Assembly (NCBI RefSeq): GCF_001186125.1
Contig: NW_014039682.1
Location: forward strand, 1 to 34,763
From: Sphaeroforma arctica JP610
Lineage: Eukaryota
Length of the DNA stretch: 34,763 bases
Reading direction: 5' to 3'
Below, piece by piece: positions 24,130 to 34,677 of this stretch (position 1 is its first letter; every line of letters begins with the position of its first letter). Below the pieces are notes generated by a model, which was not told the origin of the DNA, searched no databases, and was given only the letters and a program-made list of their open reading frames with translations. The translations under genes and the position numbers were made by a program.

Positions 24130-25950
24130 TATAAAGGTCTTTCTGAAGAAAAGTTAAATAATATTTAAAAAGACATACTGGATTCTAGAGATTGGCCTCG
24201 GGGGAAAAGCGGTTTCCAGGCCACCAAGTAGTAGTTCATATTAATATTATTTAGTATATAAATTCCTAAATCTATGTCGTGAGTAGGACAAAGATATTTG
24301 ATTCGTATAACCGTATACGCAGGCTATAGTAGAAATCAACCATACCTCTTGAGTTAGCTATTTTTATTCACATACTCAGACTATTAATGCAATCAAAATG
24401 TATCTAATACAACACTTTAAAGCTATTGCAAAAAGAACTTATATTCAGTTCTAAAAGATATAAATTAAAACCAATGTCTTATTTCATTTGAACTTAATTG
24501 AAATAAGATTTTTTGAACTACCACACGGAACCAAAGGTACGACTTTCTCAGAGGAAAACACTCAGAGGCCAACACAGCGGTAAAGCGGCTTTCTACATTA
24601 ACATGATTGAATAGTTATTTTATCAATGCCCAAGGCGGGTTCGCCCATCCTTTGTATATTTTCGGACCATTATTGAATTCGTCAATTTTGAAGGGTGAAT
24701 AGAGGACCTGCAGTCCGGTAGTTGTGCGCTGTGTAACGTCGCAAACATGTTCATTTTATGTTCGCTCTATGTTTTTTGAGCTAGTATGAATAAGCAAAGG
24801 TGTAGCCTCCAATCGGTAGCTAACAACTCTCAACAGCCTTTAAATAGTCTGGTAACATCACCGTCATTTGTTTACCAATATTTGGTATAGTATAGCTAAA
24901 GGGCGTGTCGATTACAGATTGACTCGTCACAGGAACAGACTATGCAGAGATCTTAATTTTTTTGTATGCGACTATATAATCAGCTGTCTAAAAATATTTT
25001 AGATTACCATAGTGTAACTGGAAGTGTCGCTAGATGAGGTACTTCATTTAAAGTCATAAACCCGCAATGGCTGTTGACATTCGTGGAGGCAATCTAATCT
25101 AGAACTTGTTCGACTTTCCTGCACAGGATCTATCTCTATACCATGTCCGAATATCATATATTCTAATGTGATACTTTGTCTATTTCCGACTCACAGTTAC
25201 CTTCATTTATTATGAAGCTGTGTGTATTTAGTCGTGTACGTGACTATATGTGAGTGTTCTTCGCGTGTAACGGTAAAGGTAATCAAGTAATATCATCCCA
25301 GTATACCCTTGCTTGTGGCAATTTGTAAACAGACCCACCTGTAGCCCAAAAGGTGCATCTCTGAACATATACTGGCTACCTTTCTACGTTCTACGCAAAA
25401 GAGAAGTGGGATACTTTCGAAGTATCTTAATTGGGTGATAACCTTTTGCATGGTTTATCTTGGGAATACTTTGGCACCTCCCAAAAAGGGTAACATCTCG
25501 TTTATACGAGATAATCTTAAGTTCTTTGTGGGTAACATCCTGTAATAAATTATGTGAATGACTTGAAACCCCAATAACAAAAATATCCCATGACAAGATC
25601 TGAACTCGCGACTTTTCGGTTTAGTCATTCACTTTATTCATTACAATCCTATTTTAATATGCTTCTTGTCCAAATATACTCGAACTTCCTTTAATTAAAA
25701 GTATCGTCAGAGTTAAGCCAGTCAGCTGTTGAATGTGCCAAATTAGAAGGTGTAGGTTCGTAGTTCAATTCCAACGACTTTTGCAATGGCATAGTCGCCA
25801 CATCAGTATGTGTGTACGACATACAATAGTTCCATTTAGTGTTGTAATTTTGTCACATTGTGATACAACACAACAACGGTGCTAATATAAAAATATGGGA
25901 TAAGCTGAGTGGCTGCGGGTGTAAGTGGAGACAAATACGAGATACGGGAT
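24130..25950 (-). mobile_element. Degraded Ty3/gypsy retroelement (element B): RT - RNase H - adenine methyltransferase - (integrase core deleted) - GPY/F-like - chromodomain
   Basis: Minus-strand translation across stops and frameshifts: TTLNGTI and SWDIFVIG...ELKII...VTLFG (RT-like); KYLI*RHFQL and FSYTI...LPDYL (RNase H end); ELLATDWRLH...MNMFATLHSAQLP (from 24829 down); GWANPPWALI (WANPPW at 24647-24630); KYLCP...LGIYILNN; YYLVAWK (24233-24213)...PEANL. Confidence 0.75.
24590..24829 (-). pseudogene. Dam-like DNA N6-adenine methyltransferase domain remnant of element B
   Basis: ELLATDW...NMFA...QLP...HP followed by KGWANPPWALIK*LFNHV. It aligns by eye with the domain at 30073-30460. Confidence 0.8.
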
Positions 25951-26991
25951 GGTGACTACTATCATCGTCTCTTTAGATACGAAAGATTTAGTTATGTTTA
26001 AAATAGGACTTAGAGTAGGATATATTCCATTCTAGCGCATTCGACCTGTTTGTTCTACAAGAGTATGCTGGCGGTGCCAACTGATCGGTGCTGTTAAGTC
26101 TTAACAGAAATTTTGATGCAACAGCGCAATAATATATGCTACAGACCTAACTACTATCTACTTGCAACATACAGATACATACAACATACATATAGTGTTG
26201 CAGCACAGTTCGGTACCTCTGAGTATGATTTATTGATTTTGAATTCGAGAATGCCGTAGCGGACGGTACAGTGATCTAGGACAGGACAGGACAGTCCAGT
26301 CCTAAGCAACGGACATAGGACAGCCCTAAACCCTAGTCACGAGGACAGCCATGGTCAGACAGTTCACATGTCATCGGAAGGCAAGTCAACCAGGAGACAG
26401 AGACTCCCGGTTAAGATTAGCAAGCTAGCCCTCGGGCTGACTGTTTTGTAAACTGGTTGTAGCAAAGCTAGACCAACTAGCTCAGTTTGCTGACTGTAAA
26501 CAACGTACTACAACTAAGCTCCACTAGGCAACCTAGGGTAAAATCCTAAGAGCCTTCGAACAGTATCATCAATTTACAACACAGCAGTTCATCAATTTAA
26601 TAATTTTTACTGAGTATTCGTAACCCCACAATAGTCAGTGTGTTTTGCGCAGTTTAGTTCTACTTCGGTGGTTCAGTCTCTCCACATCTACTACACATGT
26701 TCTTATTCTTCTCCCTATAGGACAAGGGAAAGTTGTCCAGCGGGTACAACACACACGCATCCTCCCGGATGATGCTCGAGTCGATTTCTCACTTCTGCAA
26801 TTTGATCAAGCTATCCAGATCAAGATGACGATGGAGCTCGGTTTCGGTGCCACGGTAGCCATGATTCAAGGCTACCTTATAGCACCTTATAGTATACTAC
26901 GGTGCTGCCCACTTCTGTCGCCCTGAGAATGTACTCAAGCTCCTCGACCACGAGAAACGCCTAAACACAGCACACTACCGTGACGACCATA

Positions 26992-27732
26992 CCAAGCTGA
27001 TCTACTTGTCTGATTTCGAGAAGAACGGCGTCCTGTCAATCGTATACCGTCTAGTTGAGAAAGCTGGCCCGGTGGTGCAGTACCAGTTTTACCAGTAAGG
27101 TAATATGCACTAGCACTCACCCAGTGACCGTGTCCGACAGCGTCACCGGTCGCTACTCCACAGATCACACACTACTGGTCAATGTTTCAGTTGCTCGTTC
27201 AACAACAGTTCTGCCGTCTTGCCGCCCTGGCTAGGAATCCTAAACGCTTGAAGCTACACTGAACGCACCGACCGCCGCCTCCACGAGTACGCAACATCAA
27301 GATACTACTGACTGAGGATGTGAACGATACCGTAGGCTCAAGAGCCACACCCTAATCAAGATCGTGGCCTATACAACTGTCACTCCAGTACCCATAGCAG
27401 CACATCATCCCAAGCTGATCTACTTGTCTGATTTCGTGAAGAACAGCGTCCTGTCAATCGTATCCCGTCATACCGTCTAGTGGAGAAAACTAACCCAGTA
27501 GTGCAGTACCAGTTTTACCAGCAAGGTAATAAACACCAGCACTCACCCAGTGACCGTGTCCGACAGCGTCACCGGTCGCTACGATATAGATCACACACTA
27601 CAGGTCAATGTTTCAGTTGCTCGTTCAACAACAGATCTGCCGTCTTGCCGCCCTGGCGAGGAACCCTAAACCCTTGAAGCTACACTGAACGCTCCGACCG
27701 CCGCCTCCACGAGTACGCAACATCAAGGTACT
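26992..27732 (+). repeat. Tandem duplication inside element C (copy 1 26992-27404; copy 2 27410-27732, continuing at 29230-29481)
   Basis: ccaagctgatctacttgtctgatttcg...gagtacgcaacatcaag occurs twice, and 27318-27404 matches 29395-29481. Confidence 0.9.
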
Positions 27733-29225
27733 CATGTGGATACTTATAAACAAAATTTTGACAATTGGATACGTTTTAAAATATGTATTTAGAGAGCAAA
27801 GCATTGCCCGGACAGACATGAGCAATGCGTCATCGTATTCAGCGTAAAAAATTGGATCAGGATCATAATGGACAAACACCGAAAACATTAGTGACGGTTG
27901 GTAACAGGAAGTGGGCTTAAAATAGCCCCAATACCACATTTTACGGTTGCTAGTTAGATATGATTTTCAAACACACATATAATCGCTTCTAATGCACTTT
28001 AAACTTAGTGGTTTCGTGCACAGTGATCCTTAAGAGTATATTTTTATGTCAGTATATGGTTTTTTTAAGAAAGAACTAATAAATACAATGTATAGTATCG
28101 TAAAAAAATTCGAGATCACTAGATGTTGATTCAATTTGTCGTGTGTGCAACAAATGTTTTTCACGCCATCAGATGGCGCTGTTTTTAGGTTATAGAAGAA
28201 TTTAATATGAGAAACGTAGTGCACATCACACATAGGATACCAAGGTGAACAACTACAGTATGAGCGACGCTGATTGGAACAGCCAGCGGCTTTGCAGACC
28301 CTCTTTCGGTACATTGTTGTACCAGGTTTCACCTTGATCCATTGATTCGATTCATTTAACACTCCAGTTGTTCCGACTGGTCATTGCATCGGCCTGTGAT
28401 CATTCAAAGGTACTGCTGTGCGAGTTGTAACACCCTCTCCATGACAGTACAGCTATTTCACTTCAAGCTGCACCTCCCTGTGAGCTTCATGCATACTTCT
28501 GGGCTTCTGTTTGAATATATGTTGGTGTGCTAGTACAGCATTGGCCACGTATCCACTACGTAATGATACATTCTGGTCGACCATTTCTTCGTCTTGATCC
28601 CTGTTTCAAGACACACGGATCCACCCCTAACTTGATTATTTAAATCGACCGCATTCCGTCCCTTATGGTGATAGTGACTTACTGTAGGAGGATATCGAAA
28701 AGTGGTTTTAGTAACGATAGATCTGCTTGCCCTTTCGTTTTGATGTGCCATATTTGGCTGCAAAAAATCCTGTGTATAGCTGATCTTTGTGGTCGTACGA
28801 ATCCCTTTCTGTGTATCGTAATCGAACAATGGCTTGGAGGCCATGTGCTCTTTAAGTGCATCGCCTGGCACACCTTTCGGCCAATACTTCCTCTTCTTGA
28901 TTACAAACATTTCAAAAAGACCAACCAACAGCAGCTCATAAAGTAGCTACAGGATACAAAACCCCGAATGGGACTATCTTGATTTGACATAAAAAAACCC
29001 CATTATTTGTTCCAAACGCGAAAATACCTCAAAAATCGGCCAATTTTTAAGGTATTTTGGTGTTTGGACCGGAAATATGGGAAATAACGTAAATAAATCA
29101 GTAGCTTCGCACCCCGAATCCATGACAATAACACGGCTTGTATGCTGTATAGATTCAGATAGCCGCATAACAAGAACCCGTCTTGCCAAACTCGTCATAG
29201 CGCTATGGTGATGGATGTGGAGTAC
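27733..29225 (-). mobile_element. 5'-truncated piggyBac-like (DDE_Tnp_1_7 / PGBD-type) transposase pseudogene inserted in element C
   Basis: EFGKTG/LVMRL...RVIVMDSG|FCIL...IKKRKYWPKGVPGD...RNAVDLNNQVR...KTKKWSTRMY, and a C-terminal Cys-rich domain CKAAGC...SYCSC...MCDVH. Contains stops and frameshifts. No intact TIR or TTAA pair seen. Confidence 0.82.
28970..29110. mobile_element. 141-bp insertion with 9-bp TSD (Mutator-like MITE candidate) inside the transposase
   Basis: ACCCCGAAT at 28961-28969 and 29111-29119. Removing the insert plus one repeat restores VMDSGFCIL. TIRs are only weakly similar. Confidence 0.78.
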
Positions 29226-29664
29226 GTACTTTACCCTCGACTAAATCAAGAGCAAAGACGACATATAATTTGCAGCACGCTATAGTTTAAAATTCATTAC
29301 CAAAAGACCACGGTTTACGTGGACAGCGGAGACATACTTTCGTCGACACAGCACTTCCAACTAGGCGAGAAGACTCGTTGCATATTCCTGGAGAATGTGA
29401 ACGATACCGTAGGCTCAAGAGCCACACCCTAATCAAGATCGTGGCCGACACAACTGTCACTCCAGTACCCATCGCAGCACACGTAGTGGAACGCATGAAT
29501 ACCGTAACCCGCAGTACCCAGAGCTCAAGCTACACCACTCATCCACCGATGCCAAGCGAATTCGAATATTCTGGCACGAGTACGGCATTGAAATTGAAGA
29601 AATCGAACCTCGGTCCAAAACAGTGGTTCAACAAGCCCCAGTAGTCCAGCCACCACAAGATGGA

Positions 29665-30027
29665 GTACCCTTCATGGTGACTACAGACGCATCCAACATG
29701 GCGTCGGGAGGTATTCTGTATCGAATGATTGACAGGAAACCGAGATACGTGCAGTACTTTAGCAGAGCTATGAACTCGTCACAAAACAATTTTCCGACTA
29801 TGCAGCAAGAGCTATTAGCTATTGTGACCGTACTCACTCGTTTTAAGGATTACTTATACGGTACACATTTTAATGTACTGTGTGATCAGAAATTGTTGCA
29901 ATATTTAAAAGATATGAAACCAAATTCACAATTGGTCAGTCAATGGCACGATACGATCGCAAAGTTTTCTTTTAGTATTACACATATACCGGGTATACAC
30001 AATCACTTACCGGATATACTGTCACGC
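29665..30027 (+). pseudogene. Ty3/gypsy-type RNase H domain of element C
   Basis: PFMVTTDAS...GGILY...YFSRAM...QELLAIV...YLYGTHFNVLCDQK...QW...ITHIPGIHNHLPDILSR. Confidence 0.93.
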
Positions 30028-30072
30028 TTCGTACCGGATTTCAACAAGGTGGTTCGGGAATTGCTAGCTACG

Positions 30073-30460
30073 GATTGGAAGGCCAATCCTAGGTGGTTTA
30101 AAATTGCAGACAACATACATGGACCACATTCCATCGATATTTTTTTTGCAGCACATCACAATGCACATATGCCGCTATACCGTACTCTGGAACACCCAGA
30201 CGGTGATGGGTTTTAAATCGATTTATCCGATGAGAACGCATGAGCGAATCGACCGTGGTTGTTGATACCACAGTTGCTAAATTATGTTCATTTACAAGAT
30301 GCTACCATCACTCATTCAGATAAATGGCCACCACAGTTGATATCGATGATACAATGTGAGCCCATATATGTGGATAGAGAGGTAGATACTGTCCTCTACC
30401 AGGGTACCCGTGCAGTCCAGAAGACTCCTTGGCGACATACGATAATATGTCGAATAGGTC
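30073..30460 (+). pseudogene. Dam-like (DIRS-MT / phage Dam family) DNA N6-adenine methyltransferase domain of element C
   Basis: DWKANPRWF...HGPHSIDIFFAAHHNAHMPLY...DGF*IDLSDENA*ANRPWLLIPQLL. Motif I-like DxFA and motif IV N(R)PW (30247-30258). Same frame as RNase H and integrase, with two in-frame stops. Confidence 0.82.
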
Positions 30461-30894
30461 GAGTTGGTACAACCAAATGGACACCATTCGTCACCTTCAA
30501 ACATAAAGTCGACGAATCCAAGATTCCACTCTTGACACCTAAGTTTCAACGAGAGGCTGGGGCGACACACGCACCTGCAGTATGCGTTACTTAGGTACAA
30601 GCTGATCATAAGGATGCAAAGAGGAACTCATCACTATCGAAGGCATTTTACAAAAAGATATGTCCTGATAAAGAAACTACATACGAAGCCGAGACTAGGC
30701 TACTCAAACAGTTCATGAATAACTATCCAGATGTATACGACCATGTATCTCAACCAATGAACAAAGAGAACAATAGTAGAATTCACACGGCCGATCTTTC
30801 AGGCGAGATTGGACGAGGCGAGTTTTCGAGTCCGGGTGATGAAGTAGTAGAATCCTCACTTCCAGATTTTGATATAGCAAGATCAACGGAGGGT

Positions 30895-31560
30895 GACATT
30901 CTAAAGTGGTTAAGGCAGAATCATGCACTTGAACACATGGATAAGGTTAGGACTGAGAAAGATTGCAAGAGGTACGGGATTGTACACCCAAAGCTCAAGC
31001 AATATATATCTCAGGTGTATCACGAATTTAACGATTGCGAAGTTAACCGGATCAAGCGCTATGAATATGCCCCATTGCGGAGTGTATCAGAAAACGAGCC
31101 ATGTCGCAGGGCTATCATTGATTTGGTTGAGCTACCCACGTCCGAACACATGAAAGATAAATATGTCTGCCACGTTTTTGATGTCGCTTCAAGATATAAT
31201 GTATTATATCCTTTGAAAGACAAATCAACACAAACGGTGGCTGAGTGCATTTATAAGTGTTTCGTAGATTTCGGCTGGCCAGCTTTAGTACGTACCGATA
31301 ACGGTAGTGAGTTTACAGGAGACGTCATGACGACGCTGTTACTCGTTCCGGGATCATGCCACAAAATGGGTGTACCTTATAAGCCTCAGACACAAGGTGC
31401 AAATGAAGTGCGACACAGAAAGATAAAGGAGTTCATGCGTGGAGCGTTGCTAGACGATGCTGACTTGTAGCCATACTTAATTAACTGGGTACAGACACAC
31501 ATGAACGAGACACCGGATTCAGTCACTGGTACAACACCCGCCCACTATTTCAGGGGCCGT
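30895..31560 (+). pseudogene. Retroviral-type DDE integrase (HHCC remnant plus rve core)
   Basis: HALEH...FNDC. IIDLVE (D at 31120), RTDNGSEF (D at 31297), PYKPQTQGANE (E at 31405), giving D-x35-E. TGTTP motif. In-frame stop at 31468-31470. Confidence 0.93.
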
Positions 31561-31719
31561 TATAGTGGATTAGAAATACCTTTCAACAAGGATTCTCAAG
31601 ATCATGTGTTACTATGGTTAGAGAAGATGCGTCGTACCTTTCCTTGTTTGAGAGAGATGAAGGACATCGCACTCAAGAAGAGACAAAGCGATGGAATGAT
31701 TCAAAAATAAATAAATAGT

Positions 31720-32206
31720 CGAGTTTGAGGTAGGCGATATAGTCAACATTATGGCTCGCAACTCCGATACAACTGTGCTTACGGCTAAATACATTAGATC
31801 ATTCAAGATTTCAGTAGCCGATAAGAAGAGCGGAATTTACGAAGTCAACAATGTTGACGGGTCAAGTGCTCTTAATATCGGATCCCATCGAATTCCAACG
31901 ACGAAAATCATCCTTCGTCGCACACGTGAAGCTACTACACCTTGTATGTTTTATGAGTTTAAGAAAATTCTGGGGAAATACAAACATGAGGATATCACTT
32001 ACTACACTACGGAGTTTGCAGATGGCGTACAATACGATCTACCTCCATCGTCATTCGATGATCTTGATGTATTGAAAGCTTTTAATAAGAAGTTTCGTAA
32101 GCGTCTACATAAGAACAAGGTAGACACCGACGCGATCTTACTTACAAACAATCGTCCGGAAGTAGTCAAGTTTTATCCCCAGACATCATTCATTCCAAGT
32201 TCCTAA
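31720..32206 (+). pseudogene. Integrase C-terminus: GPY/F-SH3-like module plus chromodomain-like domain (~31949-32095)
   Basis: FEVGDIVNI...AKYIRSF...GIYEV, then FYEFKKILG...YYTTEFADG...LPPSSFDDLDVLKAF. Confidence 0.65.
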
Positions 32207-32597
32207 GAACATGGAATGTATGTACCTCCGAAAGGCACTAAGAACCGTTCCATTCACCATCGGGGACCTTAAGGACCTAAACCCGAACGTAATAGAATAA
32301 CCAGGTAACTTATAAAGTCTAAGTATACTTTGTCTAAGAGAGTATAATATGAGCATTGAGGCCATTTTATATGATCGAAACCCGTTTCTTCTTTTCGCTT
32401 GTACAATTCATGTGAGATATTTGAGTCTATGTGCTTCAAAACACATATAAGCCAACATTGGAATTTTCAAGCTGGAAGGGGGGGGGGGGGGGGGGGGGGT
32501 GCGGTGTAAAATCAGCGGGTTCCTATCGTAGAAGCACATGTTAACGTATATTATAAATGTAANNNNNNNNNNNNNNNNNNNNGGGGGGGGGGGGGGT

Positions 32598-32777
32598 TGT
32601 GGCGGTGTAAAATCAGCGGGTTCCTATCGTAGAAGCACATGTTAACGTATATTATAAATGTAATAACGTTTATACGCTATTGCGGCTATGAAAACTGGTA
32701 TACGTTGAAACGCAATTGTAGATAATTGTATCTGTATAATAATCAAATAATCTAATTAAAGGTATATTGAATTTACA
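32598..32777 (+). repeat. Putative 3' LTR (180 bp, TG...CA) of element C, preceded by a poly-G polypurine tract
   Basis: G-run, then TGTGGCGGTGTAAAATC...ATTGAATTTACA. No second full LTR in the window to confirm the right end. Confidence 0.6.
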
Positions 32778-33910
32778 GAAAACAAACAAACAAATAATCT
32801 AATTGGGATATTGGGAACTACAATTGTATACTACAGAGGCCTGAGACCCTATTGATATTGATATGATGGTTTTTCTACACTGAAGTGTTTTCCATCAGAA
32901 TATTGGGATACAACACTGAGTGAGTCTCAGGTGATATTGACACTTGAAACATGTTGTAGTACCAAATGCACTCAGCGCGAGGTAGCCTGTGGTACCCGAC
33001 GCCTTTGTGTGGAAGCGAGTGAGTCTTGCGACCACCGAGCTGTCTTACTGCCATCGTATGCGAGCCCTTGTCGTGCCTCACTGCCTCTAACAGTCCCAGA
33101 GTAATGAGGACAGCGAGCGTCGGATCGTACCACACTGTTGGCTGCATGCGCCGCGACAGATGCACCAACCGTCCATAATCATCGCGGTGGAACCATTTGT
33201 AACGTCTTTCATAAACACTGCTACAACAGCCAAGTACCTGCTTATAAGTTCTCCGAAGGAGCTTCCCACACCATCCACACATCTTCGTTGACACATGCCT
33301 CGACCCATGTTGACGACGACGACGACGATCTAACGAGACTCCCCTCAATCGCACCGTCTCCGACCCGACCGCTGTTGCCGTCAACACTAACACTACTGAC
33401 GACCTCCTACCTCCTGCGCGACCTCTGCCCAACGCTGCCAACCTTAAGCTCACACTCGGCGCACAACCAGCACCCGCAAATTTCAAAGCCCTCCAGAAAA
33501 AAAAAAGAAAAAAAGGAAAAAAAAGTAGGAGGAATGTGTCAAATAGGTGACACAAAAACACTACAAGAGCAAGAGAATCAGAAAAGAGATAAATAAATAC
33601 ATATTTAGAGTAAATATCTGACTATCCGTCGTGATGAACTGATTTTTTGATGACATATTTATAACATGTATTTACACAATTTATGATGTGCTGGATATAC
33701 ATAGTAGTGCCTTGTGGATAACAGACATTACGGTAGTATGCATGCACGTATGTTGTGCATACGAGCGCTGGATAAGGACTTACTGTAGTGTCGTACCGTG
33801 CAAAGATGAATTAGACAATCGTTCAGATAAAAAAATCCACAAGCACACCACACATAGTAGCGTACAAAGTTAGAAATTAATTCGTATCCGGGAATCATCA
33901 TTCTTGCGCC

Positions 33911-34189
33911 ATGAATTCACAAGAGCGAGCCCTGCTAGCTGCAGCCAGGGCTGAACGAGCTGCCTCTGCGAAGACACGGTTCACCAAATTAAATACGTCG
34001 CATAAAAATTTACAGCCAACGCCCAGTGTGTCTACTGAGAATGCATCTAATACCGAACAGATGGATGGCAAGAGGTTGCCGAGTGTCGTTGCTAATAGTA
34101 GTGCTACTAAGAATGCGAACAAGCTGAGGAGAAACGAAACAGTCAGTGCGCAACCGTCCGAGTTCATTGCTGATAATATCCTCACTCTG
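33911..34189 (+). CDS. Probable first exon (93 codons) of an uncharacterised gene continuing to the right
   Basis: GCCATG start, hydrophilic protein-like sequence MNSQERALLAAARAERAAS..., ending at the donor CTG|GTATGC. No recognisable domain. Confidence 0.55.
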
Positions 34190-34677
34190 GTATGCTGTGT
34201 TGGGACGATGCTTCATTTGGTGATTATATCTGGTGTGGTTTGTGATGCGATTGTTGTGTGTAAACTGCATGCTTTCATTTACCAATAAATTCGATGTGGT
34301 ATACTTGCCAGTGTTTATATCGAGAAAACTGTGACGAATTGAGTACATGTAATAGATTGCTCCTTCTGAGGGATGATACCTGAAAGAACAGTGATCGTTC
34401 GCGGATAAGTAGAGCGATATACAAGTGCACACAGCCACAAAACATATTATATATCTCTCGGTTTCTCCGATAGAGTCCAATTAATGGTGAATAGGCTGTT
34501 TTGCATACTTTCATATGCTCAGTAAAGCATAGCTATGCTACATTACATGTGCACAAACAGTTGCACATATATTGTTAACGAAGATACAAGTGTCTAATCC
34601 ACTCGTTCTCTTCTTGTAAACAAGTTGTACCCTCGCTCATGTACAGAGTGATCGAATATATTTGAACACTCAGTATT

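What the first reader, a model, noticed from the sequence alone, without database searches (positions are those of the whole stretch)
29665..32095. Ty3/gypsy LTR retrotransposon with a DNA N6-adenine methyltransferase between RNase H and the DDE integrase
Seen in sequence: about 15 codons after the RNase H end (LPDILSR), the same frame reads DW...F...GPHSIDIFFA...N...Y...DGF...*ANRPWLLIP. It then continues to an HHCC/D-D35-E integrase, a GPY/F-like module and a chromodomain-like end, followed by a PPT and LTR. Established knowledge: this DW/DxFA/NPP(W/F/Y) pattern marks the phage-Dam-like MT domain (Pfam Dam) that follows RNase H in DIRS elements, which use a tyrosine recombinase. Canonical Ty3/gypsy pol has no such domain. 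Inference: a gypsy lineage that encodes its own 6mA (or N4C) writer, perhaps to mark its cDNA or integrated copy as active chromatin or to protect it from host defence. I cannot exclude earlier reports in other eukaryotes.
Basis: partly seen in the sequence, partly recalled or inferred. Interest (0 to 1): 0.9.

Follow-up and report, generated by a model that had tools for sequence, protein, structure and literature searches.

The report
Broken methylase-carrying gypsy retrotransposon copy
This is a broken, truncated copy of a gypsy-type jumping gene in the protist Sphaeroforma arctica that carries a Dam-like domain, predicted to be an adenine methyltransferase, between RNase H and integrase; a 2026 preprint already described this design in the same species, so it is an ordinary extra example.

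Summary
Fifteen codons after RNase H, 30070-30462 encodes a Dam-like domain. It misses Pfam Dam itself, but 60 of its 66 homologues hit it, and a profile built without it scores it 104 bits against at most 9.4 for 1000 shuffles. Its model best matches class I methyltransferases. An intact 1376-aa RT-RH-Dam-IN protein (P0003) is colinear with the segment, so this is no chance DIRS junction. The host is Sphaeroforma arctica. The design was published as 'Ichthyosporean DAM-LTR' (bioRxiv 10.64898/2026.05.21.726589), with 6mA data from this species. This scan's earlier notes report the same design on other DNA. This copy is dead: no RT, five in-frame stops, a frameshift, NPPW read as NRPW. The LTR is unproven. 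Two small additions: a degenerate chromodomain-fold tail, although the preprint says the lineage lacks chromodomains, and PCIF1 (an RNA-cap methyltransferase) as nominally closest solved fold, so the substrate is open. Already known; low interest.

The parts
29611..30027 (+). RNase H of gypsy-type pol, with a short piece of the connection region; no RT upstream
   Evidence: PF17917 E 7.7e-25; tblastn with P0003 starts at 29611 = P0003 residue 432; 67% identical to P0003
30070..30462 (+). Dam-like (DIRS/PCIF1-clade) N6-adenine methyltransferase-fold domain, pseudogenised: stops at 30214 and 30241, 6-residue deletion, one extra residue at the DxFA motif (30136), NRPW at 30247-30258
   Evidence: 60 of 66 homologues hit PF05869; 104 bits vs 9.4; model pLDDT 89.8, class I methyltransferase matches; 64% identical to P0003
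30463..30882 (+). Poorly conserved linker between the Dam-like domain and integrase; stop at 30592
   Evidence: 36% identical to P0003; 30379-30840 is 75% identical to S. arctica P0004
30883..31062 (+). Integrase zinc-finger region: two His at 30922 and 30934, first Cys lost, second Cys at 31036
31084..31572 (+). Integrase DDE core (D 31120, D 31297, E 31405); stop at 31468
   Evidence: PF00665 E 2.1e-11; spacing 35 and 57% identity to P0003
31715..31933 (+). SH3-like (GPY/F-type) integrase C-terminal module, frameshifted; GPY degenerate
   Evidence: 54% to P0003 over 31724-32140; model residues 1-74 match the foamy virus integrase C-terminal domain, Z 6.9, rmsd 2.6, 62 aligned
31946..32113 (+). 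Degenerate chromodomain-fold tail, aromatic cage incomplete
   Evidence: model residues 78-133 match the MPP8 chromodomain, Z 7.3, rmsd 1.5, 56 of 60 aligned; sequence profile only 3.9 bits, reached by 3 of 1000 shuffles
32478..32499 (+). Poly-G tract, candidate polypurine tract
   Evidence: sequence; position only
32606..32777 (+). Candidate 3' LTR (TGTAAAATC...GAATTTACA), unproven; its first 58 nt are repeated at 32505-32562 on the other side of the N gap 32563-32582
   Evidence: shuffle fraction 0.0755; no second full copy in the window
24507..25831 (-). Second, more decayed copy of the same family: RT remnants, start of the connection region, Dam-like domain with NPPW intact; many stops and frameshifts
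   Evidence: tblastn with P0003, six pieces, E 1e-12 to 2e-5; Dam profile hits in two minus frames, E 6e-6 and 5e-5

Best explanation
This is a dead, 5'-truncated copy of a Ty3/gypsy retrotransposon of Sphaeroforma arctica whose intact relatives encode RT, RNase H, a Dam-like domain and integrase in one protein, and whose Dam-like domain likely methylates adenines on the element's own new DNA. Shown here: domain order, colinearity with an intact relative, methyltransferase fold (as a prediction), conservation of NPP[W/F] in relatives, and inactivation of this copy; identity about 0.95. Inferred: the domain stays attached to RT-RNase H inside the virus-like particle, because the spacer to RNase H is 14 residues and 64% conserved while the linker to integrase is about 140 residues and 36% conserved, and DIRS proteins end in RT-RH-MT. 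It would put N6-methyl on the cDNA or RNA:DNA intermediate. After integration the host enzyme AMT1 would maintain the mark and keep the copy transcribed (the preprint's model, untested here). The mechanism is about 0.55.
For: P0003 aligns over 29611-31686 (48% of 761 columns) and 31724-32140 (54% of 139) as one open RT-RH-Dam-IN protein. 9 of 66 homologues show RT, RH, Dam and an integrase family in that order in one protein. Window and P0003 pair in the Dam, RH and IN trees (100/99, 99/99, 100/100). The Dam domain sits in a 16-row clade (98/85) with three Abeoforma whisleri proteins and no row I labelled DIRS-like. It is as conserved as RNase H (64% vs 67%). 53 of 62 homologue rows keep NPP. 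A host gene at 6620-6856 is 99% identical to an S. arctica protein. The preprint reports more 6mA and more expression on DAM-LTRs in S. arctica and A. whisleri.
Against: No activity is shown: the preprint's dam- E. coli assay was negative, and Iyer et al. (PMC4738411) judged DIRS MTases likely inactive. The 6mA enrichment is a correlation that host AMT1 alone could produce. The nominally closest solved fold is an RNA enzyme (PCIF1, Z 8.3), with E. coli Dam at Z 6.2 and T4 Dam at Z 6.0. Foldseek gave no match at E<=0.001, and a Dam-only profile found no PDB sequence. The model was built from an alignment of homologues, so it shows the family fold and not that this copy folds. This copy has no RT, so the RT-based gypsy test rests on relatives.
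Confidence: 0.55

Rival explanations
1. Same element, but the domain is an RNA methyltransferase: like PCIF1 it would methylate the cap-adjacent or another adenosine of the element's RNA, stabilising it or easing translation or packaging; DNA 6mA on copies would then be a by-product of transcription and host AMT1.
For: Top six Foldseek rows and the top VIA row are PCIF1/CAPAM. The next VIA rows are mostly RNA methyltransferases (DIMT1, ErmE, KsgA). Weak PCIF1_WW Pfam hits on 2 of 66 homologues at E<=0.01. PMC4738411 places DIRS MTases in the PCIF1 clade. The DNA assay in E. coli was negative. The preprint's main text never mentions PCIF1.
Against: Z 8.3 is tied, within 1, with rows at 7.7, 7.5 and 7.3, and a shared fold shows no function. 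Homologues hit Pfam Dam far more often than PCIF1_WW (60 vs 2 of 66). The domain is about 130 residues and matches only the methyltransferase part of PCIF1 (chain range 492-651).
Confidence: 0.2
2. Same element, but the domain is a non-catalytic nucleic-acid or SAM-binding module that aids reverse transcription, packaging or recruitment of host factors.
For: PMC4738411 proposes this for DIRS MTases. Negative heterologous assay, and loss of part of the Dam fold, in the preprint. Earlier scan notes report families with the motif lost but the domain kept (unchecked).
Against: NPP is kept in 53 of 62 homologue rows together with the D-x-F-A and N positions, and in the second copy in this window; that pattern is expected of catalysis (inference).
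Confidence: 0.22
3. A DIRS RH-MT fragment lies by accident next to an unrelated integrase (nested insertion or assembly chimera).
For: The copy is truncated and lies on a repeat-rich scaffold with three N gaps. The linker is poorly conserved.
Against: One intact protein is colinear across all parts including the linker. RH, Dam and IN trees give the same closest relative. The RNase H scores 87.5 bits on RT_RNaseH, against at most about 35 bits for the proteins I labelled DIRS-like. No Pfam family, tyrosine recombinase included, was found in six-frame scans of 20001-29701 and 32602-34652 (such long X-read frames are insensitive).
Confidence: 0.01

Closest known systems
Ichthyosporean DAM-LTR lineage (Fernandez-Moreno et al., bioRxiv 10.64898/2026.05.21.726589; Pirum, Abeoforma, Sphaeroforma)
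   Same: Same host species, same Dam-like domain in a Ty3/gypsy pol with DDE integrase; the domain groups with Abeoforma proteins.
   Different: This copy is a truncated pseudogene. The preprint says the lineage lacks chromodomains, whereas this copy has a degenerate chromo-fold tail and Abeoforma P0010 scores 43.9 bits on a chromodomain profile made from relatives. I could not see the preprint's figures or supplements, so I cannot say whether this insertion is in its lists.
DIRS1-type retrotransposon MT domain (RT-RH-MT; Pfam Dam PF05869)
   Same: Homologous domain directly after RNase H with DW, D-x-F-A and NPP[W/F] motifs.
   Different: Here it is followed by a DDE integrase and SH3/chromo tail rather than a tyrosine recombinase, and the RNase H is gypsy-type.
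PCIF1/CAPAM cap-specific adenosine N6-methyltransferase
   Same: Nominally closest solved fold (Z 8.3, rmsd 3.0, 124 aligned, 9% identity); same clade according to PMC4738411.
   Different: Only the methyltransferase part matches; no WW hit above cut-off; substrate not shown.
Chromoviruses (chromodomain-bearing Ty3/gypsy)
   Same: Integrase followed by an SH3-like module and a chromo fold; 7 of 13 relatives hit Pfam Chromo at E<=0.5.
   Different: The window and P0003 have no Pfam Chromo hit and lack most cage aromatics.

Membership tests
DAM-LTR, ichthyosporean lineage | Dam (PF05869-type) domain in the retrotransposon pol | tested here: met
   No direct Pfam hit, but 104 bits on a profile of homologues, 60 of 66 of which hit PF05869
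DAM-LTR, ichthyosporean lineage | DDE integrase in the same pol, not a tyrosine recombinase | tested here: met
DAM-LTR, ichthyosporean lineage | Ichthyosporean host and Dam clade shared with Abeoforma/Sphaeroforma elements | tested here: met
   Host S. arctica; clade 98/85 with P0006, P0008, P0010.
DAM-LTR, ichthyosporean lineage | Absence of a chromodomain (as described in the preprint) | tested here: inconclusive
   No Pfam Chromo hit, but chromo fold in the model and marginal profile score
DAM-LTR, ichthyosporean lineage | Intact NPP[W/F/Y] catalytic motif | tested here: not met
   NRPW after a stop in this copy; NPPW in P0003 and in the second copy. Decay of this copy, not a family trait
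DAM-LTR, ichthyosporean lineage | 6mA on the insertion; methyltransferase activity | not testable with these tools
   No modification data or assay available
Ty3/gypsy LTR retrotransposons | pol order RT-RH-IN | tested here: met
   RH before IN in the window; RT-RH-Dam-IN in colinear P0003
Ty3/gypsy LTR retrotransposons | RT grouping with Ty3/gypsy references | not tested
   This copy has no RT and no reference RT set was on hand. Indirect only: a profile of the homologues, driven by their RT/RH parts, has Ty3 as best PDB match
Ty3/gypsy LTR retrotransposons | Paired LTRs with TG...CA ends, PBS, PPT, target-site duplication | tested here: inconclusive
   Poly-G tract and one candidate LTR only; shuffle fraction 0.0755; no 5' LTR in the window; no genome held
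DIRS1 (tyrosine-recombinase retrotransposons) | Tyrosine recombinase instead of a DDE integrase | tested here: not met
   DDE integrase follows in the same pol; no recombinase hit in flanks

The most novel reading that the evidence does not exclude
Ichthyosporean DAM-LTRs are in fact cryptic chromoviruses, pairing a writer and a divergent chromatin reader in one pol, and their 'Dam' is a PCIF1-like enzyme acting on the element's RNA or RNA:DNA hybrid. That would explain why it failed on E. coli DNA and would revise the published account of these elements.
Probability: 0.15. Interest if true: 0.55.

Novelty: already known. Interest (0 to 1): 0.15.

Why it matters
If intact elements write their own adenine methylation, they exploit a host mark of active chromatin. 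That idea and its first tests are already in the May 2026 preprint, for this species. This dead copy adds no new system. What remains useful is an intact close relative (P0003) as a test protein, the hint that RNA or hybrid substrates should be assayed, and a likely overlooked chromo-fold tail in the lineage.

Tried and rejected
Direct Pfam and PHROG scans of the X-read segment: no methyltransferase hit. phmmer against PDB: one irrelevant hit at E 0.57. Dam-only profile against PDB sequences: 0 hits. The whole-alignment profile was dominated by RT/RH and says nothing about Dam. Word-based homologue search of residues 120-330: 0 of 1190 candidates; it covered only 376-1199 aa, which excludes P0003. 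The first Dam profile ran into integrase columns, so it was rebuilt on Dam columns only. Foldseek gave no match at E<=0.001 for either model. The wide structural search of the C-terminal model did not run; only a re-alignment of Foldseek's 1000 best chains was obtained. The metagenome scan with P0003 gave 2 loci from 25 stretches; both are Dam-less gypsy elements with about 160 nt between RNase H and integrase, useful only as controls. No whole genome or read data were available, so copy number, LTR ends, target-site duplication and expression remain open. Six-frame Pfam scans upstream and downstream found no gag, protease, RT or recombinase (insensitive, it also missed the decayed second copy). 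tblastx between the two copies gave nothing. RH and IN trees did not resolve deeper relations: the window's only starred group in each is the pair with P0003. 'DIRS-like' and 'LTR' labels are my own, from domain content. dN/dS could not be computed without P0003's DNA.

Full report
Observation. Frame +1 from 29653 reads an RNase H (PF17917, E 7.7e-25), then 15 codons after LPDILSR the DW...GPHSIDIFFA...DGF*...*ANRPWLLIP segment, then an integrase core (PF00665, E 2.1e-11) with D-35-E spacing. Stops interrupt the frame at 30214, 30241, 30592, 31468 and 31708, and the tail continues in frame +2 at 31715-32206. The segment, read with X at its stops, hits nothing in Pfam or PHROGs on its own.

Is it a Dam-like domain? 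A phmmer search of 1.84 billion representatives gave 66 hits at E<=0.001. All 66 were scanned; 60 hit Pfam Dam PF05869 at E<=0.01 (27 of 30, 33 of 36), many below Pfam's curated cut-off. Three of the six misses match only the end of the query. A profile of 61 of these, without the window and without P0003, scores the window segment 104 bits; the best of 1000 shuffles scores 9.4. These homologues were found with the window as query, so the control shows real homology, while the Dam label rests on their independent Pfam hits. The AlphaFold model (pLDDT 89.8) matches class I SAM-dependent methyltransferases. PCIF1/CAPAM is first (Z 8.3, rmsd 3.0, 124 aligned), tied with DIMT1, a putative RNA methyltransferase and ErmE; E. 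coli Dam is at Z 6.2 and T4 Dam at Z 6.0. Foldseek ranks PCIF1 first too but only at E 0.013.

Is the arrangement real? P0003, an open 1376-aa RT-RH-Dam-IN protein from an unnamed source, aligns over 29611-31686 (48% of 761 columns) and 31724-32140 (54% of 139). Nine of the 66 hits show RT, RH, Dam and an integrase family in this order in one protein. Window and P0003 are sisters in the Dam, RNase H and integrase trees. Identity by part is 67% RNase H, 64% spacer, 64% Dam, 36% linker, 37% zinc finger and 57% integrase core. Two Dam-less gypsy relatives have only about 160 nt between RNase H and integrase. An accidental DIRS junction is therefore rejected.

Host and family. A host alcohol-dehydrogenase exon at 6620-6856 is 99% identical to a Sphaeroforma arctica protein on a contig of the window's length. 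Three of the homologues are S. arctica proteins and three are from Abeoforma whisleri (only 20 of 66 were looked up). In the Dam tree the window falls in a 16-row clade (98/85) with the Abeoforma proteins. The preprint bioRxiv 10.64898/2026.05.21.726589 defines an 'Ichthyosporean DAM-LTR lineage' in Pirum, Abeoforma and S. arctica, reports more 6mA and expression on these elements, and found no activity in dam- E. coli. I read its outline, parts 1-4 of 5 of the text and a term search. Its figures and supplements were not seen and may list this insertion or treat the C-terminal tail. From PMC4738411 I saw passages only; it places DIRS MTases in the PCIF1 clade and thinks them likely inactive. 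Other papers were seen only as search listings. Earlier notes of this scan describe the same design on other DNA (23 findings in at least 3 genomes) and none in this genome; I had found the preprint before reading them.

State of this copy. It starts at about P0003 residue 432, so protease and RT are missing. In the Dam domain the motif reads NRPW where 53 of 62 homologue rows have NPP and none has R; the aromatic residue two places before is a stop; six residues are deleted. The first Cys of the zinc finger and the GPY motif are lost. It cannot make an active protein. A second, more decayed copy lies on the minus strand at 24507-25831 with RT remnants and an intact NPPW.

C-terminal tail. The model of 31715-32203 (pLDDT 72) has an SH3-like barrel matching the foamy virus integrase C-terminal domain (Z 6.9) and a second domain matching chromodomains (MPP8 Z 7.3, rmsd 1.5, 56 of 60). 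That model used an alignment holding clear chromodomains, so it is not independent. By sequence, a profile from eight relatives gives the window 3.9 bits (3 of 1000 shuffles reach that), P0003 less, but Abeoforma P0010 43.9 and P0008 16.5 bits. P0003 shares the loss of the conserved Trp positions, so the degeneration predates this copy's decay. The preprint's 'lacks chromodomains' may reflect Pfam sensitivity (inference).

PPT and LTR. A poly-G run at 32478-32499 is followed by TGTAAAATC at 32505, a 20-N gap, and a repeat of the same sequence (TGTAAAATC at 32606), most simply an overlap at the scaffold gap. An 8/9 inverted match ending in CA at 32777 would close a 172-nt LTR, but 7.55% of shuffles give such a match and no second copy is in the window. 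The LTR is unproven.

Mechanism. In intact elements the domain most likely travels with RT-RNase H in the particle and methylates adenine on the new cDNA or hybrid, after which host AMT1 would maintain 6mA and transcription (0.55; attachment inferred from spacer conservation, the rest from the preprint's model). Rivals are a non-catalytic binding module (0.22) and a PCIF1-like RNA methyltransferase (0.2). No activity has been shown for any member in what I read.

Verdict. Real, well spotted, but already described in the same species, and this copy is dead. Novelty: already known. Interest 0.15.

Noticed in passing
window 24507-25831 (-): Second, heavily decayed copy of the same Dam-LTR family with RT remnants and NPPW intact, about 3.8 kb upstream and in the opposite orientation.
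   Followed up: partly
window 26988-27732 and 29391-29481: A 327-nt unit duplicated in tandem (90% identical), and a 91-nt piece (27314-27404) repeated just upstream of the truncated RNase H (96%); probably another repeat or the element's rearranged 5' part. No Pfam hit.
   Followed up: partly
window 6266-7368 (+): Host zinc-binding alcohol dehydrogenase gene in exons; identifies the host as S. arctica.
   Followed up: yes
window 9207-11519 (-): Exons with a GATA zinc finger (PF00320, E 2.9e-14) and weak ankyrin-repeat hits, possibly one transcription factor gene.
   Followed up: no
protein P0042 (2144 aa, unnamed source): Unusual order: endonuclease/exonuclease/phosphatase domain, Dam, RT, RNase H, integrase zinc finger; may be the LINE/gypsy chimera type mentioned for Euglena in the preprint.
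   Followed up: no
proteins P0012, P0048, P0059 (unnamed sources): RT-RH-Dam-IN elements outside the window's 16-row Dam clade; P0012 and P0059 have clear chromodomains, and P0048/P0059 group with DIRS-like rows in the Dam tree but with Dam-less gypsy loci in the IN tree, consistent with separate captures.
   Followed up: partly
window 32482-32663: 81-nt duplication flanking the 20-N gap, likely an assembly overlap.
   Followed up: yes
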